A stretch of DNA of 64,000 nt from a virus. Lineage: Duplodnaviria > Heunggongvirae > Uroviricota > Caudoviricetes. Positions within the stretch are counted from its first letter, which is position 1. Every line of letters begins with the position of its first letter. The translations under genes and the position numbers were made by a program. The notes below the pieces were generated by a model. The model had not been told where the DNA came from, searched no databases, and worked only from the letters and a program-made list of their open reading frames with translations. Location of the stretch: the IMG/VR virus record IMGVR_UViG_3300029906_000003, positions 1 to 64,000 of that record, one strand, 5' to 3'. Shown here one piece after another: positions 1,107 to 34,881 of the stretch.

Positions 1107-1440
1107 GGGCTGCAAGGAGCATCTTGAGCGTAGCGAAAGTGCGTCCAGCAGAACATATATATAATATATATATAATACTTACATTCACTTGTTCTATACA
1201 TGGTGGCTTCGCCACCCCAGAGGCGTTTCGCTCACTTCGTTCGCTGCACCCTCTGGACTCCCGCAAAACAATAGCAAAAAGAAAAGGGAAGGCGAAAAGC
1301 CTCCCTTTTTTTATTACATATTTATATATGTTATATATGCTATATACATTATACATATTATATATATTATACAAAACACGTGGCCAGTCACCCCTTGCAT
1401 ACAGTATCGCGTCCTTTGCATACATACACGAAAGCCCGCT
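940..1440. other. GC-rich (about 55%) hairpin-dense region, candidate structured RNA or regulatory element
   Basis: Local GC far above the genome background. Direct repeats gacttagact x2 and agcgtagcgaaag x2. Hairpins GGTGGCttcGCCACC and CCAGAGG..CCTCTGG. Flanked by AT runs. Confidence 0.3.
1286..1313 (+). terminator. rho-independent terminator-like hairpin followed by a T-run
   Basis: gggaaggcgaaaagcctccc followed by tttttttt. Confidence 0.45.
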
Positions 1441-2507: not shown

Positions 2508-3065
2508 TCAATATCCATAATCAACCTCAATGCAATTCATTTCCAACACGCGGCAGGCCGCTTCATGATTTTCCACACGGGTCCCCGCGCAACATGAGGC
2601 GCATACCTTAATGGGGATAGAGGGGAAAGCATTTCTCAACATAATTGCATTACTAAGTACGCATATATCCGTACAAACCCCCACCAGCTCAATACTATCA
2701 ACTTCTTCTTTAAATTCTTTGATTCTATTGATTAAAGTCTTGGCGCCGAAGGTGCTCTTCCAAACTGTATTGAAATGATTTGCATAACCTCTCAATTCGT
2801 CAATAATTTCCCATCCCCAAGTATCAATGAGACAATGCGCGGGCAGCTGTTTCATTTCAATATATTTATTTTGAATCTCTGAACCAAGAGAATGAGTATC
2901 TTGAGTAAAGAAAATGTAGTTTTCTTTATCTTCCAAATATTCTCTAATCTTTTTGTCTATATTAGAAATCATTTTATTAGTCAGAGCTTCATCTTGCTGA
3001 ATAGGCAAAGCTCCTTTCACGTTAATAAAATCATTTTGCATATCAACAACAATTAAAATCTTCAT
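2508..3065 (-). CDS. isochorismatase/cysteine-hydrolase family protein, nicotinamidase (PncA)-like
   Basis: N-terminal MKILIVVDMQNDF and catalytic-Cys motif GVCTDICV, typical of nicotinamidase/pyrazinamidase family; TGA stop; extended -10 promoter TGATATAAT upstream. Confidence 0.7.
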   Translation of the reverse strand: MKILIVVDMQNDFINVKGALPIQQDEALTNKMISNIDKKIREYLEDKENYIFFTQDTHSLGSEIQNKYIEMKQLPAHCLIDTWGWEIIDELRGYANHFNTVWKSTFGAKTLINRIKEFKEEVDSIELVGVCTDICVLSNAIMLRNAFPSIPIKVCASCCAGTRVENHEAACRVLEMNCIEVDYGY

Positions 3066-3287
3066 GCGGCGGCCGTCCTTTCTTACATTATATGCGTGGT
3101 CTCATGCGGCAGTGCGCTTGCCGCATTCCTCTTTTTCTATTGTTTTTTCTTCTTTATATATATTATATCATAAAAAGCAAAAGAAAACAATATATAATTT
3201 TTGATGCGGGCGGCCGTCCCCTGATAACATGAACGCGTCCAAAAAAATAAGCGGTGCCATCCGACACCGCACAGGACGAGGGCCGCA

Positions 3288-4187
3288 TTAAAATTCAATA
3301 ATGGCTTCGCCTTCGTCAGTAATTTTAAGACTTCTAAGAGCGTCCTTAATCATCAGCCCTGTAGACCCATCCCAACTTTCAGCCACTTCATCCAGGCTCT
3401 TGCCTGCGTGCATCTCAAGGATAGAAACAATGGTTTCCGCAATCTTACTCTCATCTTTTAGCATGATTGCGTTCTGCCCCAGTAGATTAGTCCATTCTTC
3501 CTTTACAGGCTGGTAATATACAGGATGGATAATGAGATGATACACGTTATAACGTCTCGACAGTTCAGTCAAGATTTCTTCAGAACTAATATCATCCTGC
3601 ACATCATCGCCAATGAACTCTTTAATGGCTTCCTTACTAATCTTAGGTAAGCAACATTCATCACCAATAGTAAAGATGAAACCTTTCTTCTTGTGTTTAT
3701 CCCAACTATCAATCTTAGTATGTCTTGCCGCAAAGTACCAAGGCAGAGAATAACTCTCACCCGCGTTACCGCCCCCACCTCGTTCAAAGTATACATCATT
3801 GAGCTGTTCCGCGATACGAATGTCACTTTCAAACTGTGTTACTTGAAGGGGGTAATCATCACATTCAGTATCACCAAAGGCCGCGAACATAATCTGCGGG
3901 TCTTCAATGGGCTTGCGGTCATACAGTTCAGAAATCAAATCATTCAGTTTCTTGAAGACACTCTCAAGGCAATGCCCCATAGAACCAGTCACATCCAGCC
4001 CAATGATAATAGGCGTGCTATTAGGATGTTCGTCACTGTCACACGCTTCGCGCGTCACATTCTTAGGACTAAGAGTTTTCTTCATAGAAGTGCACGAATA
4101 AAGAGAATCAACGGTAGAACTCGCACCATAACCCCTAGTTGTAGTATAAGTAGTCCAATCCATTGCAGTCCAACTACCAGAACCCAT
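3288..4187 (-). CDS. von Willebrand factor type A (vWA) domain protein
   Basis: MIDAS motif LDVTGSMG (DxSxS) near the N-terminus. Confidence 0.65.
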   Translation of the reverse strand: MGSGSWTAMDWTTYTTTRGYGASSTVDSLYSCTSMKKTLSPKNVTREACDSDEHPNSTPIIIGLDVTGSMGHCLESVFKKLNDLISELYDRKPIEDPQIMFAAFGDTECDDYPLQVTQFESDIRIAEQLNDVYFERGGGGNAGESYSLPWYFAARHTKIDSWDKHKKKGFIFTIGDECCLPKISKEAIKEFIGDDVQDDISSEEILTELSRRYNVYHLIIHPVYYQPVKEEWTNLLGQNAIMLKDESKIAETIVSILEMHAGKSLDEVAESWDGSTGLMIKDALRSLKITDEGEAIIEF

Positions 4188-4191
4188 AATA

Positions 4192-5199
4192 TCAATCTCC
4201 TTTATAAATCTCGTTTAATGTCCAATCAATCTTTATAAACTTTCGCTCTCCCCATGCAGAGGTGAGGACTTTTTCCCATTTTTTTAACTCAACAACAGCA
4301 TCAGAATTAGAACCAGAATTAAAATATTCAACAAGCGCGGGCGGCGTCTCTGGCGTCATCAGGGTGCGTCCAAATAGCTTTACAGACTCAATATCTGTGA
4401 CAGGACTTGCAATCTTATTGGCTTTTACTGCGGGCGGCATTACGTCAAAGACTTCTTTAGTTGTACCAATCATCTTTTCGCCATCATTGGCCGCGTACTG
4501 CCATCCGCCATATAGATAAATGTCATGATTAGCTAAATCTATAAACATATTATCTAATGTAATTCCATTATGAACGCAACCCCCACCTTTCATATATTTA
4601 AAACAACAGCAAAGGTTAAGAAGGCGAGTAATCATCCAAGCTAAGTGGCGCGGCGGCACATTTAGTCCAAAAAAGTTTTCAACGACTGGCCGCATTGGAA
4701 CTACCTCTGGCCGCTTATTCAAAACAAGCACTTTTTCTTTGTCTATTGTTTCGTAGACTTTGGAAATTTCAGGCAAAAAGTGCTTAAATTTTAAGGCTAT
4801 TTCCTTGTGTGCGAAGTCGATAGCCCCTGTACGGTTAATGTATTGGGCCGAAAATTTTTCTTTGTTTTTATCAAAGATGTACAAAACGTGACTAGCCCCT
4901 ACAAGGCATTTGCCGCACTCAAAGTCATAACTATATTGAGGTCTTACTTCCAAAGTTTTGCTGTCTATTGTTTTTATGCGAACTAAATACTTGCTTTGCC
5001 AATTCCCATTTTGAAGGGCGGCCAGCGCTTCATGATACATGGTATTTAGCTTAGTAAAGGCTTCATATGCATCTTCTTCACAACAAATATCAGGATGACA
5101 AATTTTACTAAGTGCAAAGTACGTTGACTTTACACTGTTAATATCTGGTTCAAATATATCTGCGTACTCTCTTGCCGCAAGAATCTGTTTAATAGTCAT
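4192..5199 (-). CDS. J-domain (HPD motif) protein with a C-terminal kinase-like region
   Basis: YFALSKICHPD (HPD tripeptide of DnaJ J-domains); HNGITLDNMFID resembles a kinase catalytic loop. Confidence 0.5.
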   Translation of the reverse strand: MTIKQILAAREYADIFEPDINSVKSTYFALSKICHPDICCEEDAYEAFTKLNTMYHEALAALQNGNWQSKYLVRIKTIDSKTLEVRPQYSYDFECGKCLVGASHVLYIFDKNKEKFSAQYINRTGAIDFAHKEIALKFKHFLPEISKVYETIDKEKVLVLNKRPEVVPMRPVVENFFGLNVPPRHLAWMITRLLNLCCCFKYMKGGGCVHNGITLDNMFIDLANHDIYLYGGWQYAANDGEKMIGTTKEVFDVMPPAVKANKIASPVTDIESVKLFGRTLMTPETPPALVEYFNSGSNSDAVVELKKWEKVLTSAWGERKFIKIDWTLNEIYKGD

Positions 5200-5490
5200 T
5201 TATTCATTTCCTTTGCTTTTCTTTATATATATATTATATCATAAAAACAAAAGAAAAACAACATGGAATTTTTAAGACGCAAAAAGTGCTATGAACAGAC
5301 ACAAGCAAATCCAACAAAAAGAGAAGCGCCAAAACGCCTCTCCTCATAAATAAAAGTCCTTCTCTGACAAGACTATTTTCTTCTACAACAAGCAGATAAG
5401 GCCCCTATCGAATATTTTATCGTTTCGGAAAAAACTTAGCTCATTCTGCTTGACCGCGCAAAAAGAGGAGGCTTTCGCCCCCTCCATACA

Positions 5491-6366
5491 TTACTCAATA
5501 TTGTTCAATACTGGGATGGTTTCCCCTCCGCCAACATAAGAAGGAAGCTCGCCATTCCACTTACTATCCACGTCCATGATACGATAATATTCAATCAGTT
5601 CAGGCGTAATACTAGAGGTCAATGCCTGGTTAGCTTCCGCCGCTTTCTGGGCCGCATACAATTCAGTATCAGCTGCAATCTTCTGCTGGGTGGCCGCAGC
5701 TTCCGCCTCAATGACCTTCTGTTCAGCCTCCGTCTGGGCGCGTTCCTTATCTTGTTCAGCCTTAGCTTTTGCCTCAACCGCATCTGTAAAGGTGTCCGTG
5801 AAGTCAATATTAATCAGACTAATATAGTCCAGTTCAATATTATAACCACTAAGTTGTGTAGCAAGAGTTTCCGTGATTTCATTCACAGCTTGCGCCCGAC
5901 TTTCAATCAGTTCATTGGCAGTATACTTCGCTAGACCAGTTTTTACTACCTCGCGCATCTTGGGCAAAATGATAATATCTTTATAATTCTTGCCAACTTC
6001 CTTGTACAGGTTCATAGCCGCGTCTTGATTAATTCTATAACCGATTGTAACACTTGCACTCACTTCCTGAATATCAGAACTAAAGCACATCAAGTCTTCA
6101 CTGAACTCTTGCACGCGGTTATCCATTTTAACGACCCCTTGCCACGGAGCGATAAACGACAAACCTGCATCCAGAGTCCTATCTTCAACGCGGCCAAAGG
6201 TAGTAACAATACCCGTATAACCTGTGGGGATGCTCACTACACATGAGGTTACGGCTAGTACTACGGCAAGGGTACACGCCGCCCCGCCAATAATCTTCAT
6301 CTTACCTTTTGTTTTAAGGAAGAGAATCGCGCCAACAATAGCAAAAATAATAGCTACAAAAATCAT
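5491..6366 (-). CDS. SPFH/band-7 (prohibitin/HflK-like) membrane protein
   Basis: N-terminal TM helix; GIVTTFGRV...LSFIAPW signature of SPFH; Ala/Glu-rich coiled-coil tail. Confidence 0.75.
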   Translation of the reverse strand: MIFVAIIFAIVGAILFLKTKGKMKIIGGAACTLAVVLAVTSCVVSIPTGYTGIVTTFGRVEDRTLDAGLSFIAPWQGVVKMDNRVQEFSEDLMCFSSDIQEVSASVTIGYRINQDAAMNLYKEVGKNYKDIIILPKMREVVKTGLAKYTANELIESRAQAVNEITETLATQLSGYNIELDYISLINIDFTDTFTDAVEAKAKAEQDKERAQTEAEQKVIEAEAAATQQKIAADTELYAAQKAAEANQALTSSITPELIEYYRIMDVDSKWNGELPSYVGGGETIPVLNNIE

Positions 6367-7149
6367 TTAATCATTCTCCTTAATTAATTTAGTTACTTTC
6401 TTATAATATTTATTAACAAAATCTTTCTGCGCTTCTTCATCTTCAAAATATGTCAGATGGCGCAAAGCAGATAGATTTTCATCATAATAAAGGAAAGTAT
6501 CCTTTAAAGACTCGTAAGTATAATCACAGTTCTTCAGAAGAGTATCAATCTTATATTCATCCCACTCTTCTTCTTTTGCTTCTTTGATTGCTTGGACAAC
6601 AAAATCGTTATAAGGGATAAAAATATCTCTAATATCTTCGTTTAAACCATGCACATAGTTATCAAGAAATTCCGCTTGGAGGATGGCGTTGACAGTACCT
6701 TTTATTGTACTTTTCTCCAAAAGACTCAAACCCATTTTAACAGAATGAGTAATTGTATTAATTGGATTCAAATAAACAAAAGTATCATACAAATAAGACT
6801 CGCAGAAGTCCCGCCGCCAATATTCAGTCGTGTTAAACCGAGTAAGCAATAGCTCAATGTCTTTGGGATAACCTTGCATTAGACCTTGCGTCCAGGTGCG
6901 GATGTCTTTAAGAACAACCTTCTCTCCATTCTCTAACTGAATCTCTTTATTTACTGGCCCCTTATGCCAGACCGTAAAGTCAAGAGAAGGAATAAATAGA
7001 GTCACGGTATCAACATCGCTTTTTGCAGTGTCGGTTTTATAGTTCTGGCTACCGTACAGATAGGTGCCAAAGTTCTTAGCTTTCGGCGACCACTTCTCCA
7101 ATTCTTTTAAAGCAATACTTTCGTGCGCGGCAAGTGCCTGTTCAATCAT
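6367..7149 (-). CDS. nucleotidyltransferase-fold protein (pol-beta superfamily)
   Basis: GS-x10-DVD motif (YLYGSQNYKTDTAKSDVD) near the N-terminus. Confidence 0.5.
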   Translation of the reverse strand: MIEQALAAHESIALKELEKWSPKAKNFGTYLYGSQNYKTDTAKSDVDTVTLFIPSLDFTVWHKGPVNKEIQLENGEKVVLKDIRTWTQGLMQGYPKDIELLLTRFNTTEYWRRDFCESYLYDTFVYLNPINTITHSVKMGLSLLEKSTIKGTVNAILQAEFLDNYVHGLNEDIRDIFIPYNDFVVQAIKEAKEEEWDEYKIDTLLKNCDYTYESLKDTFLYYDENLSALRHLTYFEDEEAQKDFVNKYYKKVTKLIKEND

Positions 7150-7417
7150 ATGGTATCTCCATTAACTCCAAATTATTAATTAAGAAAACTATGTTAGTAC
7201 CGTTCATTCCATGAGATGATATATTTGCAATTTTACCTTTTTCCATCTTTGCGAAAAGGTTTTTCACGACTGGCCGCGAAACATCACAATCTATACAAAC
7301 CTAAGTAACCACTAAATCTGTGCTTTTTTTCTTTCCACCATCAAAGTATTTATTCAATATATCTTTATACAGGCGACTTTCTTTTTTTGTGAGTGTGGAC
7401 GCAAACATTGCGCGGAG

Positions 7418-7846
7418 CTAATTCTCATCTTTGTCGGGGTCTCGTCCATTGAATTTGTCAATGACCTGCCGCGCGAACTTATAAATAATATTTAACGATT
7501 CTGTTTGCGATGAACTAGTCCATTCTTCTTTTGCTTTAAGGAAAGAATCTTTATATAAAGCATTTTTTAGCGTTGAAGAACTATTATTAAACAATAAATC
7601 AGCTCTTTGAAATGATTCGTGAGTTATGGCATCATCTAATGAATGTAACCCAAAATACTCTCGTATATCAACTACACACACTGAGCCTCTTTCCTTGGTT
7701 GATTTAGGAACTAGACAACTATACAAATCTTTTTCTTTAGGAAGAATTATTCCAAAAATGAGGTTGTTCTAAATTGAAACAACGGCTAGTAACTAATTCC
7801 CATACCATCTGAATAACTCATAGTAACACTCTTTGAGCCCATCCAT
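7418..7846 (-). CDS. hypothetical protein with 2 N-terminal in-frame TAG codons. The track ORF 7418-7726 ends at a TAG; read-through would extend to about 7283.
   Basis: Manual extension upstream through TAGs gives MDGLKECYYELFRWYGN[TAG]LLAVVSI[TAG]NNLIF.. in frame with the track ORF. The sequence downstream of the terminal TAG is protein-like (MFASTLTKKESRLYKDILNKYFDGGKKK). Confidence 0.4.
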
Positions 7847-8296: not shown

Positions 8297-11200
8297 ATGA
8301 CTAGCTTTTATGGAAGCGTGAATGGCGGCCAAGGGGGAAGCGGCGAAGGGGTTGATACTTCTACTCTAATGCAGAAGAATAACCCGACCTTCAATGGCAC
8401 TATCACTGGCCCCAATGCGCGCTTTACAGGAACTGTGCAGATTCCTGAACCAACAGAAGATAATCATGCAGCTACCAAAGGCTATGTCGATGCGGCCCTC
8501 GCTGATGTCGATTTAAGTGAAGTTACTACTAGAATGGACGCAATCGAAACCGCATAGGACGAGCTTGCCGCGCAGTTAGATGATAAAGTTGATGCGGAGA
8601 ATCCCGCATTTACTGGCACAGCTACTTTAGATGGAAAGAATATTGCAACTGTAGACTAGATTCCTAATATAAGTGATTTACCTTACCTAGATGAAAATAA
8701 TCCAACTTATACTGGGACTTTAACTGGCGAAAATGCGGCCTTCAGTGGAACCGTCACGGTTGCAACCCCTGCCGCAGAGGGCGAGGCCGCGAACAAAGGC
8801 TATGTGGATGCAGCCAAGACAGAACTTGAAGGAGATATTAATACTTTACAGCAGACTGTTGCAAATCAGGCTGAAACTATTAATACTCTTAATCAATAGG
8901 TAACTAATATAACAGGCGGAACAGTAGAGCTTCCTTATTTGAAGAATACTGGTGATAGCGGCACTGGCGTCTATGATTTCACGGGTGCAACTGTTAATGC
9001 GGCCGACCCAGTTGATAACAGCAATGTTGCAACTAAACACTATGTGGATTAGAAGGTTGCAAGCGCAGGTGGCACAGGTGAAGTCGTAAGCTATACTCAA
9101 GGCGATGGTATTTCTATCTCACCTGAAAATGAGATTAGCTTGTCTATTGATAGCGCGGGCGCCAATGGTTTGAAAGTTGGAGCTAATGGTCTAGGCTTAG
9201 ACCTTGCGACCGGTACAACATCAGGTGCCATGGCCGCATCAGATAAGACTGCTATTGCTTCAAATACGACTGAAATTACTAATATTAAAGATGGAACTAC
9301 TGAATTGCCATACTTAAAAGAGACTAACCCTACATATGAAGGCACTCTAATCGGTGGAGATGCGACTTTCACTGGGAGCGTCTAGATCTCAACTCCTGAC
9401 CAAGACAACGAGGCCGCGAACAAAAGCTATGTAGATACAGCTCTTGCAGAAGCTAAATCTTATACTGATAATGCAGTATCTGGAATTGCTTCTGATGAAA
9501 CAATTCAGCAAATTCAATCTGATATTGAAAATATTGAAAATGGAACTACAGTTCTTCCTTACTTGTCATCAGCTGGGGGAACAGTGACAGGTCCTATCAA
9601 GTATGGAACGAGTCCTAAAGATACGTCAGACTTGGCAAATAAAGCATATGTAGATGCTATCCATGTCCAAGCTGTCGCAGATGCTAAAAATTATACTGAT
9701 AGTGAAATTACTAATCTTGAGAATGGGACAACTGAATTACCTTATATTAAAAACAATGGAGATACTATAACAGGTAGCTATGATTTAACTGGGGCCGCAG
9801 TTACTATCGCTGAACCTGTATCTGATAATAGCCCCGCTACTAAGAAATATGTTGATGATTCTATTTCTGCTATTGATGTAAGTGAATAGATTGCGCCTTT
9901 AACTGGAAGAGTCGCTGCCGCGGAGGGTGAGATTGATACCCTGTAGATTGACGTTGAAGCTGTTGAGATTAGCGTGGCTAATATTACTAATGGGACAACT
10001 GAATTACCTTATGTAAAAGATTCTGGTGACACTGTTACTGGCACCTATAATTTTACGGGAGCTAATGTGACTATTGCCGAACCTACTGTCAGTAATAATC
10101 CTGCTACTAAGAATTACGTTGATACAAAGATAGCAAGCGCAGGCGGCTCTGGAGAAGTTGTGAGTTACACTTAGGGTAATGGTATTAATATTTCTCCTGA
10201 GAACATTATTTCTGTAGTCATTGCCGCAGATAATGCCAATGGTCTCGCTGTCGATACTAATGGTATCAAATTAAATGTGGCGACTTCTACAACAGCTGGT
10301 GCGATGAGTGGAGCTGATAAAGCTAAACTAGATGCTTCTTCTACTACTGAGCAGATGAATCAAGCTATTAGCAGTGCTATTGATGAAGCTCTTGAAGACC
10401 CGACCAAACTGCCTTTTGTAAACATTAATGGAGATACCATGCACGGTAGCCTTACTACCACTGAATTGTTTACTGATTTTGTCACTATTCGTAATGCAGG
10501 GACAGATGGTAAGACAGGTTTCCAGAATAATAGTGATACTGACCATATTAGAGTCTATGATAAAGTAGCCAACACTCTTGTTCCTATTGAAGTTGGAGAA
10601 CCTGTAAACAATCAAGATGCTTCAACCAAGAAATATGTTGACGATAAGGTTACTACTGAAACTGCTGCTAGAGCAGAAGCTATCGAAGACCTTAATGAAG
10701 CAAAAGCAGATAAGGACAATCCCACATTTACTGGCACTCTTTCAGGTGCAAACGCGACTCTTAGTGGCACATTAACTGGCAACACAGCAACCTTCTCAGG
10801 TGGAATTACTGTTCCTCTTGAGCCAGGAGCAGAAGGAAGTGCAACTTCTAAGAAGTATGTTGATGACCAGATTGCCGCCATAGATGTAAGCGAGCAGATT
10901 GAACCTTTAGCTCAAAGAGTTACTACAGCAGAAGGAGAAATTGATACTCTTCAAAGTAATATTGTCAACATCACTAATGGAACTACTGAGTTACCATATA
11001 TTGAAAAATCCAATGGCTCTTATACCGGACAGCTTTTTGGAGAAAACCTTGAGTTGTCTGGCAATATCAACGCAGCAAATGCTGAATTTACTGACAGTGT
11101 TACCGTACCAGTTACACCTATAAATGATGCGAATGCTGCGTCTAAAAAGTATGTAGATGAGAAGGTTGCTACTCTTCCCTATGTAACAAAAGAAGAGGTA

Positions 11201-14200
11201 GAAATTGCTGCTGATACTCGTGATGTAGCTAGAGCATATCGTTATACCTTCAATGATGGTCTTGACGGAACTAATTCTAATGCGGGCTTCGGCTTCATTG
11301 ACTACACTCCTGCTATTGTTACAGAGAAAGATGGAAGTACGGATTTCTCACCTTTGTATATTGGAGAGCCAGAAAAAGAGTCTCAAGCTGCTACTAAGAA
11401 GTATGTCGATGATACTATTGCGGCTGTTAATGCTCCTGAATATACTTTAGCTAAGCAGACCGCAGCAGAAGATGGATATTTCGCCACTTATTATCTGACC
11501 AAAGATAGTGTGCAAGTTGGCGAAAAGATTAATATCCCTAAAGACTACCTAGTTAAAGAAGCAGAATTGTTAGAAGTTGCGGTAACTGATACTCCTTATA
11601 GCGGAGCTGTGATTGGTGACAAGTACATTGACTTTACAATTAATACACAAGCCTCTGATGAAGATGAGCAGCATATCTACTTGCCCGTTAAGGACTTGGT
11701 TGATGTCTATACTGGCGGCAATGGTATAAACATTGACGCATCTAATATTGTAAGTGTTTAGATTGATGCGGCAAATAGTAATGGACTAGCTCTGGGTAGC
11801 GCAGGACTCAAATTAAATCTTGCGACCACGAGCGCCGCAGGAGCTATGAGTGCGGCAGATAAGACTAAATTAGATACTGCAATAAGCGAAGAACAATTAA
11901 CTGCGGTTGAGAATGAAGTTGATACTCTTCAAACAGAAGTAAATAATATTAAGAGCGGGACAACTGACCTTGGTTATTTGAAAGCAACTGACCCAAGTTA
12001 CACAGGAATTATGACTGGTGTCGATGCTACATTCAGTGGAAATGTAGTTGTTCCCGCACCTGATACAGATAATGAAGCTGCTAACAAGAGTTATGTTGAT
12101 ACCGCTATAAGTGGAGCTAAGACAGAGCTTGAAGGAGATATAAGCACTATTCAACAAACTGTTACCGCTGTGCAAGGAACTGTATCTGGTTTTGAGAGTG
12201 AAATTGAAACTCTTACACAAGCCGTAAATAATATTACTAATGGAACAACAGAACTTCCTTATATTAAGGATTCTGGAGATTCTGTTAGTGGTAATTATAG
12301 CTTCAATGGCACTGTTACTGATATTGCATCTCGTACTTCTAATCTTCAGCTTGCCAATTTAAATACTGCTCCTGACCAATGGATAGATGCTGAATATGCT
12401 AATATCAAATACAATTCTACAAATAAGAGAGTAGACTTCAGCCTCATGACCAATACTGGTCTTACTACTAATGGAGTTAAAGTCAGTGGTGCAGAGCCTG
12501 AAGGAACTAATGACTTTACTACTAAAAATTATGTAGATACTAAAGTAACAGACCTTCAGAATAACAAGCTGAATAAAAATAATCCTGCCTTTACTGGCAC
12601 TATTACAGGAGCCAATGCTAGCTTCGCTGGGACATTAACTGGCAATGCAGCAACATTTTCTGGCGGGGTTACTGTACCTCTTGAACCAGGCGAAGAAGGA
12701 AGTGCTACTTCTAAAAAGTATGTTGACAACCAGATTGCTTCTATTGATGTCAGTGAACAAATTGAGCCATTAACTCAAAGAGTCACCGCTGTAGAAGGAG
12801 AAGTTGATACCCTTCAATCTAATGTTGGAACTATTGAAACCAATATCACTAATATTACTAATGGGACAACAGAGCTTCCTTATGTTAAAAAAAGTGGAGA
12901 CACAGTAACTGGCTTGCTTACTCTTGAGCAAGGGGTAAAGAATGTCAACACAGATGACCCCTCTTATGAAACTAATCTAAGTTCTAATGGATTTACTTTT
13001 AAACATGATTCAACAGTAAAAATGCTTAGCCTTCAGGGCAACAAATTAAAATTCTCAGACGCAACTGCTCAAACTTTAGTTCCAGTTGAAGTAGGAACGC
13101 CTATTGAAGATAAAGACGCAGCTACTAAGGGATATGTAGATGAAAATACTTCTCCTTTGTATACGAAGTCTAGCTTTGGTGTAAATATATTTGGATAGCC
13201 CCTAGGCGAAGAAAGCCTAGGAGTTTTCGTAGATAATGTTAAGACTGAAAAGCCTTTATATGGATTAACTCTGTATGGAGACTCGTCTCAAGAACATTAC
13301 GAAGGATATAACTTATTAAATCCTGATAATATTACTGAGAATGTAGGATATAGTGATACTGGTACATCAGAGACTAAACAAGGCGTCTTCAGTATAAAGT
13401 TTGTATTTGAAGAAGGTCAGGATTATGCGTTTGTTCTTGCATGGGATATCAGTAAGAATTTTGAAGAATACTTGTCTCAATTAAATATATTCTATTATAA
13501 TGCTGGACAATCTTTTGTTAGGAAGGAAACCGTCTATTTGGGAAGCCGATATGAGCAATTATTCAATAGTTATACCAACTCTGCTCATTCTGGATATGTA
13601 TATATTGAATTGACTCCTAAAGAGAGTTTTACCCTTACAAAAGAATTTATTACGAATAACTTTATGATTCTTTTAATTGAAAACCGAGCTTTCCCTTTTG
13701 AACCTTATACAGGTAAAAATCCAGCTCCTTCTCTTATATATCCAACTGATATAACAGGTATAGAAGAGAATCCTGTATTATTTGATTATGGACAATTATA
13801 TACGCAAAATAACAGTGGCTCTTCTTCAATTGATTTTGAAAATTTAGGCAAGATACATTTGCCTACTATAACTTCTCCTTTGTATGGAGGTTATCTGGGA
13901 AATATGAGCACTTATAGCGAATCGCCCAATATTATTATGAATTCAATTGCTAGAGCTTCATTTGATAGTGCTACAATATGTAATAATGGTTTAGAAGACT
14001 GTATTTATTATATAGACAAACGTGATTATAAAAAGGGAAAGGATATTAGAGTATTTAAGACTTTAACTATTAATCCTACAGAAGTAAGCGATTACATTAC
14101 TGATGGCGGGGCTTTAGGAAATGGTCATAAGTTTATTCTTAATGTAAATGATAATGTTAAGTTTGAAAATTATAGTTTGAATGACTTAAATGAAAAAGAA

Positions 14201-17005: not shown

Positions 17006-18535
17006 TTATGCCATATCAATTACCTTATACCGCTCGCCATCCAGAACTTCATACATCAAATCAGTTCCCGTTTTGCCACTCAAAACCTGCTTGAAGATGA
17101 TGGGGCTGCATCCAGATACATAAGTGATATTAGGGCCATCATCCAGAATGTCAGCATTCCCCGTAGCATTCACATTCCAATACACGAGTTTAGGCAGGGT
17201 AAGGCCATGTGCCGCCCACTTCTCTCGCATATTTTCCATCATAGTTCGCGGATTAGGCTTCTGCGTAGAATATCTGTACACACCACGCGCCGAATCAATC
17301 TGCATATCGCTAATAACAACAAGAGTCTTAGGAATATCTTCCTTTCGAACACCAGGTTGCGTAGCAATCTTCAACAGCAAATCAAAGGTGGCTTCGAGGT
17401 TGGTGTTATCTACGAGATTAGTTCTATAGATACGATTAACCTTATCAACAAAGTCTACGCCTTCAATTTTAATCAACTGCGGGCGAGAAGCAAAAGAAAT
17501 ATAATTGTTCTGGAAAGGACCGCGGCAACGCTCACCGCAGTAGATGCCGAGCGAAATGGCTACGTCAATGGGACGCACAGCATTACCGTAAGTCATGGAA
17601 CCAGAGGTATCCACAACGCACATCATGCTAGATTCCTTGCCCTCAAAGTAATCAGGAAGATTTTCCCAATACTTATTAACAGCAAGCCGCTCAACAGAAT
17701 CGTAATCTGCGGCCTTCACGAATCTCCCATACCGATCCATATGAACGAGGTCAAGGGTCTTCTTAACTACGTCATACGGATAAAGGGTGGCCGCATTGAC
17801 CTTTTTAGTTTCGTCCTTAATGAAAGCCTCATACTCAGCCTTCAAAATGTCGCGGCGGGCAAATGCGTTCTTGTAGATAAGACCTGCACGAGACGGAATC
17901 TTATCAAACATATCCGCAATCTCATCCCAGCGGTTGGCGGACATGAGCTTCTCAAGCACCTTAATGCGCTCACGCAGAATGCTAAGTACCTTCCGATACT
18001 GACGAGAGGTCATACCCAAGTACTTCCGCACATCATGAGCCAGCGCAATGGTCTTGGCCGCACTCGCGTTCTCGGAAGGCAGCCACTTAGCCAGCAAAGA
18101 AGGGGCCTTGCACTCCATATCCAAAGCCAGCTGATGCTTGACAATCTTCATTGCATCATTCCAAAGCTGAGTGCCCTGAGTAATGTACAGAAGGTCGTCC
18201 CAGCGGCCATATTCGGGGATGAACCCAAGATTATGCTTAGCCGCATCCTTGTTATAGCCGATTAGCCAACGATAACAGGTACGAAAGTACCGACGCTCGC
18301 CTTGGCCTCCGCGCACATCCCTTTCATAGAACAAACACTTCAGCGCATAGACGGGATTCTCATCAAACGCATTCTTAAACAAAAGAATGCAATCTTCATC
18401 CGGTCTATTCCGCATCGCGCCCGCATGAGCAAACATATCATACAGAGCTTCGCCCGTACTCTTATGTGCCAGCCCGCCATTCTGGGTGAGGCCATAGTTT
18501 GCAGACTTGTTCATCTCATTCATAAAAGTATTCAT
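17006..18535 (-). CDS. vWA-domain protein (DUF2828/TROVE-like architecture)
   Basis: VVDTSGSM MIDAS motif; 509 aa; the overlapping + ORF 16874-18265 is a shadow ORF. Confidence 0.65.
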   Translation of the reverse strand: MNTFMNEMNKSANYGLTQNGGLAHKSTGEALYDMFAHAGAMRNRPDEDCILLFKNAFDENPVYALKCLFYERDVRGGQGERRYFRTCYRWLIGYNKDAAKHNLGFIPEYGRWDDLLYITQGTQLWNDAMKIVKHQLALDMECKAPSLLAKWLPSENASAAKTIALAHDVRKYLGMTSRQYRKVLSILRERIKVLEKLMSANRWDEIADMFDKIPSRAGLIYKNAFARRDILKAEYEAFIKDETKKVNAATLYPYDVVKKTLDLVHMDRYGRFVKAADYDSVERLAVNKYWENLPDYFEGKESSMMCVVDTSGSMTYGNAVRPIDVAISLGIYCGERCRGPFQNNYISFASRPQLIKIEGVDFVDKVNRIYRTNLVDNTNLEATFDLLLKIATQPGVRKEDIPKTLVVISDMQIDSARGVYRYSTQKPNPRTMMENMREKWAAHGLTLPKLVYWNVNATGNADILDDGPNITYVSGCSPIIFKQVLSGKTGTDLMYEVLDGERYKVIDMA

Positions 18536-20035: not shown

Positions 20036-20175
20036 AAGTTATTTCTCCTTTTGTTTTCTTATGTATAAATTATATCATAAAAAAGGAAAATAATCAATAA
20101 GCAATTTTATTTTTTAAACAATAGAAAAAAGAAAAAGAGACGCGGCAGCTCGTGCCTTACGTCTCTAGTTGCGTT

Positions 20176-20249
20176 GGAGCAGGATACCAGACTCGAACTG
20201 GCGCTGTATGATTGGAAGTCATAAATGCTACCACTACACCAATCCTGCA
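20176..20249 (-). tRNA. tRNA-Gly(UCC)
   Basis: cloverleaf folded by hand: acceptor GCAGGAT/ATCCTGC, anticodon stem TATGA/TCATA with loop CTTCCAA, T-loop TTCGAGT, U73, CCA encoded. Confidence 0.8.
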
Positions 20250-20254
20250 TATGT

Positions 20255-20328
20255 GGAGCCGCCACGAAGAATCGAACTCCGATACGCTCATTACAAGTGA
20301 GCAGTTCTACCGTTAAACTATGGCGGCA
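20255..20328 (-). tRNA. tRNA-Thr(UGU)
   Basis: acceptor GCCGCCA/TGGCGGC, anticodon stem GCTCA/TGAGC, loop CTTGTAA, T-loop TTCGATT. Confidence 0.85.
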
Positions 20329-20406
20329 TAATTACTAGAGACTAAAAATAAATGGAGGTTTTTTCAGAACCGATTTATAAAATAAAATTTGCTGTGAGTC
20401 TCTAAT

Positions 20407-20482: not shown

Positions 20483-20485
20483 TAT

Positions 20486-20561: not shown

Positions 20562-20636
20562 TATAAAAACTAGAGAGCTTCAAAAATAAATCCAAGTCTT
20601 GTTATTTGATACCTCTTGCTGTAACTCTCTAATGGT

Positions 20637-22183: not shown

Positions 22184-22216
22184 GCGGCCTCAGTCCTTTC
22201 TTTACAGTATTGAGTA

Positions 22217-33696: not shown

Positions 33697-34881
33697 ATGT
33701 TTTCTAACCTAAAAAATATTTATGCTATTGTTGGTGCAAATTTTGGAGATGAAGGAAAAGGAATGATGACAGCATATTTTGCAAGGGAAGCTAATCATCC
33801 TATTGTCGTTCTCCATAATGGAGGCTGCCAGCGCGGTCATACTGTTCTTTCTAAAGATAATAATATTAGGCATATTTTTCATCATTTTGGGGCAGGTACT
33901 CTTGATGGTGCTCCTACTTTCTTTGCAGATACTTTTCTTATTAATCCAATGGTTCTCGTTCGAGAATATAATGAATTAAAAGAAAAAGGAATTACTCCGC
34001 ATTATTATATTCATAAGGACTGCTTGATTACTACTATTTATGATGTAATGATTAATCAGATTCTTGAAATTGATAGGGGCCGTGTATCTAAGCATGGCTC
34101 TTGCGGCTGGGGCATTTTTGAAACTTTGTATCGAAATCATTCAGCTACAGTTGATTTTAAAGATAAGCTTATTAAAAAATGTAGTATGACGGTAGAAGAG
34201 TTCAATATGCTAAATATTATTAGCAAAATTGATTTTATGGATTTTATTCGCAAAGAATATTTACCACTTCGGCTTAATAGTTTTAATATTCGTAAAGATA
34301 TGAATGAATATTATTCTAAAATTATTAATAGCGATGGCGCAATGATTCATTATATTGAAGATTTCAACTTCATGATTCAGCACGCAGATGGAATTGTAGA
34401 TAATGAAATCCTTAATGGCTATGAAGATATTATTTTTGAAAATGGGCAGGGGCTTTTGCTTGACCAAAATAATGAGGAATATTTTCCCCATTTGACCCCT
34501 AGCAATACTGGAATTAAAAATCCTGTCGCTATCATGAAAACTATCAATACTAATATCCCTATCCATGCCTGTTATGTATCTCGTACTTATGTGACTAGAC
34601 ATGGAGCAGGTCGTCTTGACAATGAGTGCGATAAAAAGGATATCTGTGCTAATATGTGGGATAGAACTAATATTTATAACCCTTGGCAGGATTCTCTTAG
34701 ATATGGTTTTCTTGACTATAAAAATCTAATGAAAAATATCAATAATGATATCAAAGATGGAGCTGGGCTAGTAGATTTTTCTATTGCATTTACTCATTTG
34801 AATGAATATCCTATGAAAAGGTTCTTTCCCGAAAATCGCTATATTTCTTTTAAGGATGGTGAAGTTATTAAACGATGGTAA
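33697..34881 (+). CDS. adenylosuccinate synthetase (PurA) homolog, candidate PurZ
   Basis: P-loop GANFGDEGKGM, GGCQRGHTV (PurA GxxxAGHT), SCGWG; phage-encoded and immediately followed by an HD hydrolase. Confidence 0.7.
   Translation: MFSNLKNIYAIVGANFGDEGKGMMTAYFAREANHPIVVLHNGGCQRGHTVLSKDNNIRHIFHHFGAGTLDGAPTFFADTFLINPMVLVREYNELKEKGITPHYYIHKDCLITTIYDVMINQILEIDRGRVSKHGSCGWGIFETLYRNHSATVDFKDKLIKKCSMTVEEFNMLNIISKIDFMDFIRKEYLPLRLNSFNIRKDMNEYYSKIINSDGAMIHYIEDFNFMIQHADGIVDNEILNGYEDIIFENGQGLLLDQNNEEYFPHLTPSNTGIKNPVAIMKTINTNIPIHACYVSRTYVTRHGAGRLDNECDKKDICANMWDRTNIYNPWQDSLRYGFLDYKNLMKNINNDIKDGAGLVDFSIAFTHLNEYPMKRFFPENRYISFKDGEVIKRW

What the first reader, a model, noticed from the sequence alone, without database searches (positions are those of the whole stretch)
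2508..7149. Leftward accessory cluster: nicotinamidase-like, vWA, J-domain/kinase-like, SPFH and nucleotidyltransferase genes; a second vWA/TROVE-like gene lies at 17006-18535
None of these are standard phage core functions. Nicotinamidase points to NAD+ salvage or counter-defence against NAD-depleting immunity, which also fits the NAD-dependent ligase. vWA plus SPFH plus J-domain proteins are typical of host-takeover or anti-defence modules.
Basis: inference. Interest (0 to 1): 0.5.

Follow-up and report, generated by a model that had tools for sequence, protein, structure and literature searches.

The report
J-domain pseudokinase–vWA phage accessory genes
The five accessory genes are real and were named correctly, but they form three separate operons of a large TAG-recoded gut phage. 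One operon (a chaperone-recruiting dead kinase plus a metal-site vWA protein) belongs to a widespread three-gene module, shared by phages and Clostridia, for which I found no published description.

Summary
All five minus-strand ORFs at 2508-7149 exist with exactly the reported ends, and every fold call holds.
- 2508-3065: a nicotinamidase with a complete catalytic triad and metal site.
- 3288-4187: a vWA fold with a MIDAS motif.
- 4192-5199: a J-domain with an invariant HPD motif, fused to a kinase fold that lacks the catalytic residues (a pseudokinase).
- 5491-6366: a membrane-anchored SPFH protein.
- 6367-7149: a Pol-beta nucleotidyltransferase, distantly RlaP-like.
- 17006-18535: a TROVE/vWA Ro-like protein.

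They are not one machine. Terminator-like hairpins and an identical 21-nt promoter box split them into three units: HTH gene–NTase–SPFH, J-pseudokinase–vWA, and nicotinamidase plus small membrane proteins.

Only the J-pseudokinase–vWA pair is a conserved unit. In 160 other loci the vWA gene is almost always followed by a divergent PurA-like synthetase, and usually preceded by the J-pseudokinase. In about a third of the bacterial loci an NrtR-family Nudix regulator sits just upstream. In this window the PurA-like gene is displaced to 33697-34881.

The likeliest mechanism is inferred, not shown: an adaptor pair that recruits host DnaK and acts with the PurA-like enzyme. No known anti-defence family matched. 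The nicotinamidase is solitary, so the NAD counter-defence reading stays plausible but unproven.

The parts
7142..7846 (-). 234-aa gene with four in-frame TAG (read as Gln). Its C-terminus resembles a CodY-type winged HTH. It overlaps the NTase start by 8 nt and is the first gene of operon 1.
   Evidence: In locus L014 the NTase homologue is fused to HTH_CodY (PF08222, 7e-10). A promoter-like TTGATT-17-TG-TATAAT lies at 7912-7884.
6367..7149 (-). Pol-beta superfamily nucleotidyltransferase (260 aa), distantly RlaP-like.
   Evidence: Pfam NTP_transf_2 0.025 and phrog_388 6e-6. Motif G33-S34...D45-x-D47, D82. Relatives that pass the PF10127 RlaP cut-off: the L048 ORF next to a J-pseudokinase gene (33.5 bits) and P0294 (37.9 bits).
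5491..6366 (-). SPFH/Band-7 membrane scaffold protein (291 aa) with N-terminal hydrophobic anchor segments and a C-terminal Ala/Glu/Gln-rich, probably coiled-coil tail. It starts directly after the NTase stop.
   Evidence: Pfam Band_7 6e-30 and phrog_200 3.5e-55. Hydropathy. Zero-nt gap to the NTase gene.
5466..5482 (-). Terminator-like hairpin plus T-run ending operon 1.
5226..5246 (-). Promoter box TTTTATGATATAATATATATA (extended -10) in front of the J-pseudokinase gene.
   Evidence: four matches in the window against 0.05 expected. The box is identical to the one at 3155-3175.
4192..5199 (-). J-domain (residues ~1-65, HPD at 35-37) fused to a protein-kinase-fold domain that lacks the catalytic residues (HRD becomes H-N-G, DFG becomes G-G-W, no beta3 Lys). 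A J-domain pseudokinase, called JK here.
   Evidence: HPD is kept in 144, 143 and 145 of 145 aligned sequences (window protein plus 144 family representatives). The family has 820 clusters at E<=1e-30.
3288..4187 (-). vWA-fold protein (299 aa) with the MIDAS motif D65-x-T67-x-S69 and D176. It starts 4 nt after the JK stop. Family phrog_2971.
   Evidence: The family has 6060 homologues and no Pfam model.
3251..3270 (-). Terminator-like hairpin plus T-run ending the JK-vWA operon.
3155..3175 (-). Second copy of the identical promoter box, in front of the nicotinamidase gene.
2508..3065 (-). Nicotinamidase/pyrazinamidase-type cysteine hydrolase (185 aa) with D8-K103-C136 and metal ligands D56, H58, H77.
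   Evidence: phrog_19305. 37% identical to the annotated nicotinamidase of phage phAss-1.
1858..2383 (-). Two small predicted membrane proteins (86 and 93 aa, one in-frame TAG each) downstream of the nicotinamidase gene.
17006..18535 (-). TROVE-like plus vWA (Ro60-like) RNA-binding protein. It is not sequence-related to the 3288-4187 vWA protein.
   Evidence: Pfam DUF2828 4e-25 plus DUF7788 1.5e-35 and phrog_850 1e-112. BLASTP against the other vWA protein is non-significant.
33697..34881 (+). Divergent PurA-like (adenylosuccinate-synthetase superfamily) gene. It is the usual third member of the JK-vWA module and is displaced about 30 kb here.
   Evidence: It keeps GDEGKG, GHT and FE.GQG, but scores far below the NCBIfam PurA cut-off (78 vs 402 bits) and PurZ cut-off (35 vs 300 bits).

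Best explanation
The region is a mosaic of three independently promoted accessory operons on the leftward arm of a large phage. The phage recodes TAG to Gln and probably infects Clostridia.

(1) HTH gene, RlaP-like NTase and SPFH protein. The NTase is probably an RNA 3'-end-adding repair enzyme, matching the phage's other RNA-repair genes. The SPFH protein is a membrane scaffold of unknown client.

(2) J-domain pseudokinase (JK) and MIDAS-vWA protein. This is the only evolutionarily conserved unit. Proposed mechanism (inferred): the J-domain, through its invariant HPD motif, docks on host DnaK (Hsp70) and triggers ATP hydrolysis. The catalytically dead kinase domain and the vWA protein, through its metal-ion site, hold the client. 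This makes the pair an Hsp70-based counterpart of MoxR-vWA chaperone/adaptor pairs. The most likely client or partner is the divergent PurA-like nucleotide synthetase that is encoded next to the vWA gene almost everywhere else. Here it lies at 33697-34881.

(3) A genuine nicotinamidase plus two small membrane proteins. The enzyme converts nicotinamide to nicotinate, which would feed the host Preiss-Handler route to NAD+.

Shown: gene identities, folds, motif states, operon signals and gene linkage. Inferred: DnaK recruitment, the client, the timing of expression and all physiological roles.
For: Operon split:
- Hairpin plus T-run sites at 5482-5466 and 3270-3251, and an identical 21-nt extended -10 box at 5246-5226 and 3175-3155 (four matches against 0.05 expected).
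- Gaps of 0 to 4 nt (or an 8-nt overlap) within units, against 291 and 222 nt between units.

J-domain pseudokinase:
- AF2 pLDDT 91. The best PDB match is the DnaJ-PKA chimera.
- HPD is kept in 144, 143 and 145 of 145 sequences.
- The HRD-Asp position is G/A in 114 and D in only 20. The DFG position is G-G in at least 140 of 145. There is no conserved beta3 Lys.
- Homologues pass the Pfam DnaJ cut-off (34 and 31 bits against 27.8).

vWA protein:
- Integrin I-domain fold, with D65/T67/S69/D176 invariant down to 37% identity.

Linkage:
- Among 85 non-window loci (80 IMG/VR phage contigs, Vibrio and Mycobacterium phages, one unannotated human-faecal phage record, two metagenome contigs), a PurA-like gene follows the vWA gene in 85 of 85. 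JK sits directly upstream in 67 of 85; counting the three window copies, 70 of 88.
- Among 80 independent bacterial loci, JK is directly upstream in 60 of 69 testable loci, and a PurA-like gene lies within 3 kb downstream in 71 of 73.
- Unbiased neighbour clustering finds only these three genes plus an NrtR-family Nudix regulator (27 loci) as recurrent.

PurA-like gene: it keeps the catalytic motifs but has lost the Asp-binding TTGRxRR and guanine-binding regions.

Nicotinamidase: all six catalytic and metal residues are present.

NTase: GS...DxD motif, plus relatives that pass the RlaP threshold. RNA ligase, PNK-like kinase, phosphoesterase, TROVE, YqeY and 23 tRNAs are present in the window.

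TAG avoidance: the five genes contain 0 TAG in 1370 codons against 7.2 expected from the recoded ORFs (P about 7e-4). This fits translation before recoding sets in.
Against: - No experiment and no complex prediction links JK, vWA, PurA-like and DnaK.
- The window's own J-domain scores below the Pfam cut-off (19.2 against 27.8 bits).
- About 20% of loci have vWA plus PurA-like without JK, so DnaK recruitment cannot be essential to the core.
- A few JK homologues lack HPD, and 20 of 145 keep an Asp at the HRD position.
- In this window the PurA-like gene is 30 kb away on the other strand, so co-regulation is lost here.
- The vWA model is less secure than the JK model. The best model has pLDDT 81, and the other four have 66-71.
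- The promoter and terminator calls are consensus matches only.
- A solitary nicotinamidase could serve ends other than NAD salvage.
Confidence: 0.5

Rival explanations
1. One reading: the cluster is an integrated NAD+-centred counter-defence or host-takeover island. The nicotinamidase restores NAD+ after attack by Thoeris, DSR or other NADase systems, and the vWA, SPFH and J-domain proteins are anti-defence effectors.
For: - The nicotinamidase is genuine.
- phAss-1 links a homologue to Prs, a gene annotated as nicotinamide phosphoribosyltransferase, and a NadE-like gene.
- In bacteria the JK-vWA-PurA-like module is often preceded by an NrtR-family regulator. Members of that family sense ADP-ribose (the effector is from general knowledge).
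- A NADAR gene and a SIR2 gene lie near the module in two other phage loci.
- Phage NAD+ synthesis as a counter to NADase effectors is documented (PMC7824862).
Against: - PADLOC gave no meaningful hit.
- No second NAD-salvage enzyme turned up in the parts of the window and left flank that were checked.
- Nicotinamidase alone does not rebuild NAD+, and it competes with NAMPT-type salvage.
- A nicotinamidase is near the module in only 2 of 80 phage loci and 1 of 80 bacterial loci.
- The genes form three separate transcription units.
- The NrtR family also includes sugar regulators such as AraR, which is the top PDB hit.
Confidence: 0.2
2. The whole set (NTase, JK, vWA, PurA-like, TROVE, SPFH) is one RNA-repair and translation-maintenance island that counters anticodon nucleases. 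JK-vWA would act as an assembly factor for an RNA-repair ribonucleoprotein.
For: - In locus L042 the order is RNA ligase, RlaP NTase, JK, vWA, PurA-like, PNK/HD kinase, PhoH, TROVE, flotillin/SPFH, Thg1. YqeY, Pth2 and an isochorismatase lie upstream.
- 35 of 80 phage loci have at least one RNA-repair or translation gene within 10 kb of the vWA gene.
- In mycobacteriophages a polynucleotide kinase lies three genes upstream of JK.
- The window itself carries Rnl, a PNK-like kinase, a phosphoesterase, TROVE, YqeY, 23 tRNAs and a ROOL RNA.
Against: - In 80 bacterial loci, RNA-repair genes are essentially absent within 6 kb of the module. There are no RlaP, PNK, Thg1, Pth2 or YqeY hits, and Rnl and TROVE appear in one locus each.
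- Many of the 35 phage loci are near-duplicates of one another.
- In the window, Rnl and the PNK-like gene are 35 kb away from the cluster.
- PurA-type chemistry has no known role in RNA repair.
Confidence: 0.12
3. JK is an active Ser/Thr kinase, as annotated in mycobacteriophages. It would phosphorylate the vWA protein as in TerY-P type kinase-vWA signalling pairs.
For: - The mycobacteriophage homologue passes the Pfam Pkinase cut-off (36 against 31.7 bits) and is annotated as a serine/threonine kinase.
- phrog_3043 is named 'kinase'.
- The fold is a eukaryote-like protein kinase.
- 20 of 145 family members keep an Asp at the HRD position.
Against: - The window protein and most of the family have H-N-G in place of HRD and G-G-W in place of DFG, and no conserved beta3 Lys.
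- The mycobacteriophage copy also lacks the HRD Asp (HGA).
- No PP2C phosphatase accompanies the pair.
Confidence: 0.08
4. JK-vWA is a virion-assembly chaperone pair, analogous to the MoxR-vWA pair needed for tail assembly in Acidianus two-tailed virus, or to the generic phage DnaJ co-chaperones predicted to aid folding and assembly.
For: - Phage DnaJ-domain proteins have been predicted to recruit host Hsp70 for folding and assembly, and MoxR-vWA pairs have been implicated in assembly (PMC7824862).
- The cluster lies next to a giant 2608-aa tail-fibre-like gene.
Against: - The module occurs as a stand-alone operon in bacterial chromosomes, flanked by ABC transporters, glycosidases and regulators, with no phage structural genes in the 6-kb flanks.
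- It is tightly linked to a metabolic-type PurA-like enzyme.
- It is TAG-free, unlike the adjacent recoded genes (the tail-fibre-like ORF and g234).
Confidence: 0.08

Closest known systems
MoxR AAA+ / vWA chaperone-adaptor pairs (RavA-ViaA, CbbQ-CbbO, NorQ-NorD, CobS-CobT; phage and archaeal-virus versions)
   Same: A small soluble MIDAS-vWA protein is encoded next to a chaperone-system component and next to the enzyme it is thought to service.
   Different: There is no AAA+ ATPase here. The partner is a J-domain protein that would borrow the host's Hsp70 instead. The client is unknown, with the PurA-like enzyme suspected.
Rki (ORF057w) of T4-like phage RB43, a phage J-domain protein that binds DnaK and stabilises sigma-32 (PMC3486835)
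   Same: Both are phage-encoded J-domain proteins with an HPD motif that presumably act on host DnaK.
   Different: Rki is not described as carrying a kinase-like domain or as having a vWA or PurA-like partner (from memory). No sequence relationship to Rki was tested here.
TerY-P triad (vWA TerY + Ser/Thr kinase + PP2C phosphatase) of Ter stress-response systems (recalled from Anantharaman, Iyer and Aravind 2012, not re-read here)
   Same: A kinase-fold gene lies adjacent to a vWA gene.
   Different: The kinase here is catalytically dead and carries a J-domain. There is no phosphatase. The third partner is a PurA-like synthetase.
Mycobacteriophage cluster C (Bixzunavirus) genes annotated 'serine/threonine kinase', 'hypothetical protein' and 'PurA-like adenylosuccinate synthetase' (e.g. 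Roots515 gp264, 265, 267)
   Same: These are true homologues in the same order. JK is 25% identical with HPD present, and vWA is 37-38% identical.
   Different: In the window the PurA-like gene is unlinked, and the kinase-like domain is further degenerated (DFG becomes GGW).
PncA/Pnc1 nicotinamidases and phage NAD+ salvage sets (phAss-1 nicotinamidase-Prs-phosphoribosyltransferase operon; NadV/NatV and NARP pathways, the latter from memory)
   Same: Same fold, catalytic triad and metal site. The top PDB hits are nicotinamidases.
   Different: It scores below the NCBIfam PncA equivalog cut-off (23 against 174 bits). It stands alone, without a phosphoribosyltransferase, Prs, NMNAT or NadE.
RlaP (PF10127) RNA-ligase-associated Pol-beta NTases (PMC12776372; PMC7824862)
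   Same: GS...DxD NTase core. Homologues in related phages pass the RlaP threshold and sit beside RNA ligase. The phage carries Rnl and PNK-like genes.
   Different: The window protein itself does not reach the RlaP model. It is coupled to an HTH gene and an SPFH gene rather than to a ligase.
PurA and PurZ (adenylosuccinate synthetase and the 2-aminoadenine-pathway synthetase)
   Same: The P-loop GDEGKG, the GHT catalytic His and the FE.GQG motif are conserved.
   Different: Its scores are far below both family cut-offs. The Asp-binding and guanine-binding segments are replaced, so the substrate is unknown.

Membership tests
Nicotinamidase (PncA/Pnc1, isochorismatase-like hydrolases) | Isochorismatase-fold domain | tested here: met
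   PF00857, 80.2 bits against a cut-off of 27.
Nicotinamidase (PncA/Pnc1, isochorismatase-like hydrolases) | Asp-Lys-Cys catalytic triad | tested here: met
   D8, K103 and C136 align to the Pnc1 and S. mutans enzyme positions.
Nicotinamidase (PncA/Pnc1, isochorismatase-like hydrolases) | Metal site D-x-H ... H (P-x-H-C) | tested here: met
   D56, H58, H77. H77 aligns with Pnc1 H94.
Nicotinamidase (PncA/Pnc1, isochorismatase-like hydrolases) | Curated equivalog score (NF008623) | tested here: not met
   23.3 bits against a cut-off of 174. The protein is a divergent member. Enzyme activity was not tested.
J-domain protein (Hsp40 co-chaperone) | HPD tripeptide between helices II and III | tested here: met
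   H35-P36-D37 lies between predicted helices 20-34 and 44-64. It is invariant in about 145 sequences.
J-domain protein (Hsp40 co-chaperone) | Pfam DnaJ gathering score | tested here: inconclusive
   The window protein scores 19.2 against 27.8 bits. Homologues P0004 (34.0) and P0007 (31.2) pass.
J-domain protein (Hsp40 co-chaperone) | Stimulates Hsp70 ATPase | not testable with these tools
   A biochemical assay is needed.
Active eukaryote-like protein kinase | Bilobal kinase fold | tested here: met
   Foldseek matches to PKA, PLK1 and VRK at prob 1.0.
Active eukaryote-like protein kinase | Catalytic residues (beta3 Lys, HRD Asp, DFG Asp) | tested here: not met
   H-N-G, G-G-W and no conserved Lys. 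The domain is therefore a pseudokinase.
vWA / MIDAS domain | Rossmann-like vWA fold | tested here: met
   Integrin I-domain and Sec23 matches at E 4e-7. Viral VWFA proteins also match.
vWA / MIDAS domain | MIDAS D-x-S-x-S plus distal Thr and Asp | tested here: inconclusive
   D65-V-T67-G-S69 (Thr replaces the first Ser) and D176 are invariant. The distal Thr was not assigned.
MoxR-vWA chaperone system | Adjacent MoxR AAA+ ATPase | tested here: not met
   No AAA+ gene lies next to the vWA gene in the window or among the recurrent neighbours.
TerY-P triad | vWA plus active kinase plus PP2C phosphatase | tested here: not met
   The kinase is inactive and no phosphatase is a recurrent neighbour.
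SPFH / Band-7 | SPFH domain with membrane anchor | tested here: met
   PF01145, 105 bits. N-terminal hydrophobic segments are present.
RlaP NTase (PF10127) | Pfam gathering score | tested here: not met
   There is no PF10127 hit for the window protein even at E<=1. Relatives L048 (33.5 bits) and P0294 (37.9 bits) pass the cut-off of 23.
RlaP NTase (PF10127) | Pol-beta motif hG[GS]x9-13 D-x-[DE] | tested here: met
   G33-S34, then D45-V-D47.
RlaP NTase (PF10127) | Neighbourhood with an RNA ligase | tested here: not met
   Rnl lies 32 kb away in the window. It is adjacent only in related loci such as L042.
Ro60/Rsr TROVE proteins (gene 17006-18535) | TROVE-like N-terminal module plus C-terminal vWA | tested here: met
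   DUF2828 and DUF7788 are both above their cut-offs.
Ro60/Rsr TROVE proteins (gene 17006-18535) | Associated Y-RNA | tested here: not met
   No Y-RNA family reached its Rfam gathering score in 1-34000.
Known anti-phage or anti-defence families (PADLOC models) | Profile match | tested here: not met
   Only two chance-level hits, at E about 0.01. PADLOC holds host defence models, not anti-defence proteins, so this test is weak.
PurA / PurZ (gene 33697-34881) | Curated equivalog scores | tested here: not met
   78 against 402 bits for PurA, and 35 against 300 bits for PurZ.

The most novel reading that the evidence does not exclude
J-domain pseudokinase + MIDAS-vWA + divergent PurA-like synthetase is a previously unrecognised system that depends on Hsp70 and converts or senses nucleotides. 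It is shared by Clostridia (and other bacteria) and by large phages of Mycobacterium, Vibrio, Rhizobium and the gut. In cells it would be switched on by an NrtR-type Nudix regulator responding to an ADP-ribose-like metabolite. Phages would carry it to remake or modify a purine nucleotide when host immunity depletes or corrupts the nucleotide or NAD pool. In this window, a nicotinamidase has taken the synthetase's place next to the pair.
Probability: 0.15. Interest if true: 0.8.

Novelty: new variant of a known kind. Interest (0 to 1): 0.55.

Why it matters
The individual genes are ordinary kinds: nicotinamidase, SPFH, Pol-beta NTase and Ro-like protein.

What matters is the J-pseudokinase–vWA pair.
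- It belongs to a large family set. JK has 820 sequence clusters at E<=1e-30, and the vWA protein has 6060 homologues (top matches about 60% identical) and no Pfam model.
- It has near-obligate linkage to a PurA-like enzyme of unknown substrate, across unrelated phages and bacterial chromosomes.
- I found no paper describing it.
- It suggests that viruses and bacteria can couple the host Hsp70 machine to a nucleotide-metabolic enzyme through a dead kinase and a metal-site adaptor.
- A culturable model already exists: cluster C mycobacteriophages in M. smegmatis.

The work also shows that 'serine/threonine kinase' annotations in about 200 mycobacteriophage genomes are probably wrong. The one copy examined lacks the catalytic Asp and carries a J-domain.

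Tried and rejected
- Megablast of the region against 50,697 phage records gave no match.
- PADLOC gave nothing meaningful.
- PDB sequence searches gave no hit for JK, the NTase, TROVE or the vWA profile.
- The afdb50 fold library was unavailable.
- The BFVD search of the vWA model returned only generic VWFA proteins.
- Ten literature searches combining adenylosuccinate synthetase or PurZ, J-domain or DnaJ, vWA, pseudokinase, NrtR and phage found no description of the triad. The library lacks most subscription journals, so absence is weak evidence.
- I looked for a shared replacement gene upstream of the vWA gene in the JK-less loci and found none.
- I looked for more NAD-salvage genes, using phAss-1 Prs, NAMPT and NadE as tblastn probes plus Pfam scans of 20 further window ORFs and the recorded gene calls of the 9.4-kb left flank. 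None was found. The rest of the genome could not be reached.
- I considered PurZ (a Z-base genome) for the PurA-like gene and rejected it: 35 against 300 bits.
- I considered homology between the two vWA proteins and rejected it.
- I considered an AbiE-like NTase/HTH toxin-antitoxin pair for the g234-NTase genes. There is no PADLOC support (g234 itself was not scanned).
- I looked for a suppressor tRNA(CUA) in the window and found none among the ARAGORN and Rfam tRNAs.

Full report
OBSERVATION.
- 2508-3065 (185 aa)
- 3288-4187 (299 aa)
- 4192-5199 (335 aa)
- 5491-6366 (291 aa)
- 6367-7149 (260 aa)
- 17006-18535 (509 aa)

All start with ATG, most have an AGGAG-type ribosome-binding site, and they stop with TGA or TAA. 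The same gene calls appear on public metagenome contigs that carry identical proteins (ENA ERZ27239276 k119_162205, 140 kb; Logan SRR4096758).

The window is a large phage with 23 tRNA genes. It has no close relative among 50,697 deposited phage genomes.

A 2608-aa tail-fibre-like ORF (8297-16123) carries 11 in-frame TAG, and repeat alignment shows they stand for Gln. A 234-aa gene at 7846-7142, with four TAG, overlaps the NTase start and is part of the same leftward block.

The five cluster genes contain 0 TAG in 1370 codons, against 7.2 expected at the rate of the recoded ORFs (P about 7e-4). They can therefore be translated under the standard code, as expected for early genes of recoded phages. 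The timing itself is an inference.

WHAT EACH GENE IS.

(i) 2508-3065 is an isochorismatase-fold hydrolase (Pfam 2.6e-22). Its best solved relatives are nicotinamidases (3s2s, yeast Pnc1 2h0r, S. pneumoniae 3o90). It has the catalytic D8, K103 and C136, and the metal ligands D56, H58 and H77. It scores below NCBI's PncA equivalog cut-off, so it is a divergent nicotinamidase.

(ii) 3288-4187 has no Pfam or NCBIfam match. It belongs to phrog_2971 (1.8e-64). Its AF2 model (pLDDT 81, pTM 0.85) matches integrin I-domains and other vWA domains (Foldseek E 4e-7, prob 1.0). D65-x-T67-x-S69 and D176 are invariant even at 37% identity.

(iii) 4192-5199 has an N-terminal J-domain with H35-P36-D37 between two long helices, followed by a bilobal protein-kinase fold (AF2 pLDDT 91). 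The best PDB matches are the DNAJB1-PKA chimeras, then PKA, PLK1, VRK1 and VRK3.
- In an alignment of 145 sequences (the window protein plus 144 representatives), HPD is kept in 144, 143 and 145 of them.
- The HRD Asp position is G (93) or A (21), with D in only 20.
- The DFG position is G-G (141 and 140 of 145).
- No beta3 Lys is conserved.
- It is therefore a J-domain pseudokinase, called JK here.

(iv) 5491-6366 is an SPFH/Band-7 protein (6e-30) with N-terminal hydrophobic anchors.

(v) 6367-7149 is a Pol-beta NTase. The profile evidence is weak (0.025; phrog_388 6e-6). The G33-S34...D45-x-D47 motif is present. Homologues in related phages (L048, beside a JK gene) and P0294 pass the RlaP (PF10127) threshold. 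RlaP enzymes add one or two nucleotides to damaged RNA 3' ends (PMC12776372).

(vi) 17006-18535 is DUF2828 plus DUF7788 (TROVE-like plus vWA, phrog_850 'RNA-binding protein', 1e-112). It is unrelated in sequence to the other vWA protein. No Y-RNA was detected.

ANATOMY: THREE UNITS, NOT ONE.
- Within units the genes overlap or abut: g234/NTase overlap by 8 nt, NTase/SPFH have a 0-nt gap, and JK/vWA have a 4-nt gap.
- Between units there are 291-nt and 222-nt spacers.
- Each spacer starts with a GC-rich hairpin plus T-run (5482-5466 and 3270-3251).
- Each spacer ends with the identical 21-nt box TTTTATGATATAATATATATA (5246-5226 and 3175-3155). There are four matches in the window against 0.05 expected by chance.
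- A TTGATT-17-TG-TATAAT site precedes g234.
- The units are therefore g234-NTase-SPFH, JK-vWA, and nicotinamidase plus two small membrane proteins. These are consensus signals, not transcript data.

WHAT TRAVELS TOGETHER.

The vWA protein has 6060 database homologues, and the top 120 are 57-96% identical. JK has 820 50%-identity clusters at E<=1e-30. In phage records the vWA protein is found in 201 Mycobacterium entries (those examined are Bixzunavirus, cluster C), 10 Rhizobium, 6 Vibrio and some gut phages.

In mycobacteriophage Roots515 the order is 'serine/threonine kinase' (a JK homologue with HPD), then vWA, a small ORF and 'PurA-like adenylosuccinate synthetase'.

I then compared two independent samples.

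Sample 1: 85 non-window loci, made up of 80 IMG/VR viral contigs, two annotated phage records (Vibrio and Mycobacterium), one unannotated human-faecal phage record and two metagenome contigs.
- A PurA-like gene follows the vWA gene in 85 of 85.
- JK lies directly upstream in 67 of 85 by HMM. Counting the three copies of the window itself, the figure is 70 of 88.

Sample 2: 80 loci from bacterial genomes and MAGs. Most are Lachnospiraceae and other Clostridia. Others include Desulfosporosinus, Desulfitobacterium, Ruminococcus, Butyrivibrio, Melainabacteria and a few Proteobacteria, and some are complete chromosomes.
- JK is directly upstream in 60 of 69 testable loci.
- A PurA-like gene lies within 3 kb downstream in 71 of 73.

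An unbiased clustering of all neighbouring ORFs in the bacterial set found only four recurrent families: PurA-like (74 loci), vWA (73), JK (70), and a Nudix plus winged-helix regulator of the NrtR/AraR family (27 loci). That regulator sits just upstream, on the same strand in 20 loci and divergent in 7. The other flanks vary (ABC transporters, a GH2 glycosidase, response regulators). The module is therefore also a cellular operon, not only a phage one.

By contrast, within 10 kb of the vWA gene the phage loci show an NTase in 28 of 80, TROVE in 27, SPFH in 24, a PNK/HD kinase in 26, Rnl in 12 and an isochorismatase in 2. In the bacterial loci these are essentially absent. Many of the positive phage loci are near-duplicates of one another.

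The window is the exception to the main rule. Its PurA-like gene sits at 33697-34881 on the other strand, and a nicotinamidase follows the vWA gene instead.

THE PurA-LIKE PARTNER. It keeps the P-loop GDEGKG (catalytic Asp), the GHT (catalytic His), FE.GQG and TRHG.G motifs. It scores 78 bits against a cut-off of 402 for PurA, and 35 against 300 for PurZ. The family has replaced the Asp-binding TTGRxRR segment and lacks the guanine-specificity region. It probably still activates a carbonyl by phosphoryl transfer. Its acceptor, amine donor and NTP are unknown.

MECHANISM (INFERRED). An invariant HPD motif is the signature of productive Hsp70 engagement. This is established for J-domain proteins, and was shown for the phage J-protein Rki (PMC3486835).

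A dead kinase domain most plausibly serves as a binding module. A MIDAS-vWA domain binds an acidic side chain of a partner through a metal ion, and in prokaryotes it typically acts as the adaptor of a MoxR AAA+ chaperone.

I therefore propose that JK-vWA is an Hsp70-based counterpart of MoxR-vWA pairs. It would deliver, assemble or regulate the PurA-like enzyme. About 0.4 of my confidence rests on this step.

The NrtR-family neighbour in bacteria hints at control by a nucleotide-like or sugar-like effector. Which one is undetermined, because the family includes both ADP-ribose-sensing NrtR and arabinose-sensing AraR.

The nicotinamidase would convert nicotinamide to nicotinate for the host Preiss-Handler pathway. 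In phage phAss-1, a homologue is co-operonic with Prs, a gene annotated as nicotinamide phosphoribosyltransferase, and a gene that looks NadE-like from its PP-loop motif. No such partner was found in the window, in the 6.7 kb of left flank probed by tblastn, or in the gene calls for the full 9.4-kb left flank.

The NTase fits the phage's RNA heal-and-seal set, alongside TROVE, YqeY and the tRNA array:
- Rnl at 39295-40533
- a PNK-like kinase at 42470-43102
- a metallophosphoesterase at 43095-43643

COMPARISON WITH WHAT IS KNOWN. Each domain is familiar. The closest systems are MoxR-vWA pairs, the TerY-P kinase-vWA-phosphatase triad, phage J-protein Rki, PncA-based NAD salvage, RlaP/Rnl RNA repair and Ro/TROVE.

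The JK-vWA-PurA-like triad fails the defining features of MoxR-vWA (no AAA+ ATPase) and of TerY-P (inactive kinase, no phosphatase). A comparative survey of jumbo phages mentions only sporadic DnaJ co-chaperones and MoxR-vWA pairs, not this module (PMC7824862). My other literature searches found nothing. The search is limited to open-access text.

VERDICT.
The genes are accessory and the nicotinamidase is real. The 'typical anti-defence module' claim has no support, and the genes do not form one system.
- The most interesting content is the conserved JK-vWA(-PurA-like) module, for which I found no description.
- Novelty: a new variant of a known kind (chaperone plus vWA adaptor).
- Interest: 0.55.

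Noticed in passing
window 8297-16123 (+), 7142-7846 (-), and many other ORFs: TAG is read as a sense codon (Gln, code-15-like). A 2608-aa tail-fibre-like ORF with a C-terminal GDSL lipase domain has 11 in-frame TAG. No suppressor tRNA(CUA) was found among the tRNAs in the window.
   Followed up: partly
window 25918-26506 (-): A full-length ROOL RNA (RF03087, 303 bits against a gathering score of 99) is embedded in the tRNA array.
   Followed up: no
window 20175-30584 (-): An array of 23 tRNA genes found by ARAGORN, plus two more seen only by Rfam (23252-23322, anticodon GCA, and 23871-23933, anticodon GAT).
   Followed up: partly
window 3155-3175, 5226-5246, 20062-20082, 21940-21960 (-): A repeated extended -10 promoter box, TTTTATGATATAATATATATA. 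Two copies are identical and two are variants, all on the minus strand. It may mark one temporal class of phage promoters.
   Followed up: partly
window 7142-7846 (-); L014 6709-7758: The C-terminus of g234 resembles the CodY winged-helix domain. In a related phage the NTase homologue is fused to an HTH_CodY domain (PF08222, 7e-10). This suggests a functional NTase-HTH pairing.
   Followed up: partly
window 35384-36130 (+) and 36712-37461 (+): A phage-encoded ABC-transporter permease (TauC/SsuC-like, 4e-30) lies close to the PurA-like gene, and a PspA/IM30 membrane-stress protein (4.5e-9) lies a little further downstream.
   Followed up: no
window 39295-40533, 41410-41865, 42470-43102, 43095-43643 (+): An RNA heal-and-seal set: RNA ligase, a weak DSP-type phosphatase match (below the Pfam cut-offs), a PNK-like P-loop kinase (AAA_33) and a calcineurin-like phosphoesterase.
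   Followed up: partly
L094-L173 (bacterial genome loci), e.g. L104 4242-4907: An NrtR/AraR-family Nudix plus winged-helix regulator sits immediately upstream of the JK-vWA-PurA-like operon in 27-28 of 80 bacterial loci, across several clades.
   Followed up: partly
L002 (Mycobacterium phage Roots515) 4835-5965, and about 200 cluster C mycobacteriophage records: The gene annotated 'serine/threonine kinase' carries an N-terminal J-domain with HPD and lacks the HRD Asp (HGA). The annotation is probably misleading.
   Followed up: partly
window 3288-4187 and homologues (alignments A2, A3): The vWA family has an invariant N-terminal Met-Gly and, in close relatives, a C-terminal ...EF. No explanation was found for either.
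   Followed up: no
L089 (phage phAss-1) 8001-12439: A nicotinamidase-Prs-phosphoribosyltransferase operon, followed by a small unidentified protein and a NadE-like PP-loop protein, in another code-15 gut phage. It looks like a nearly complete Preiss-Handler type NAD route.
   Followed up: partly
window 1312-1371: A short 9-nt tandem repeat (TATTATATA, about 7 copies) in an AT-rich intergenic stretch to the left of the cluster.
   Followed up: no
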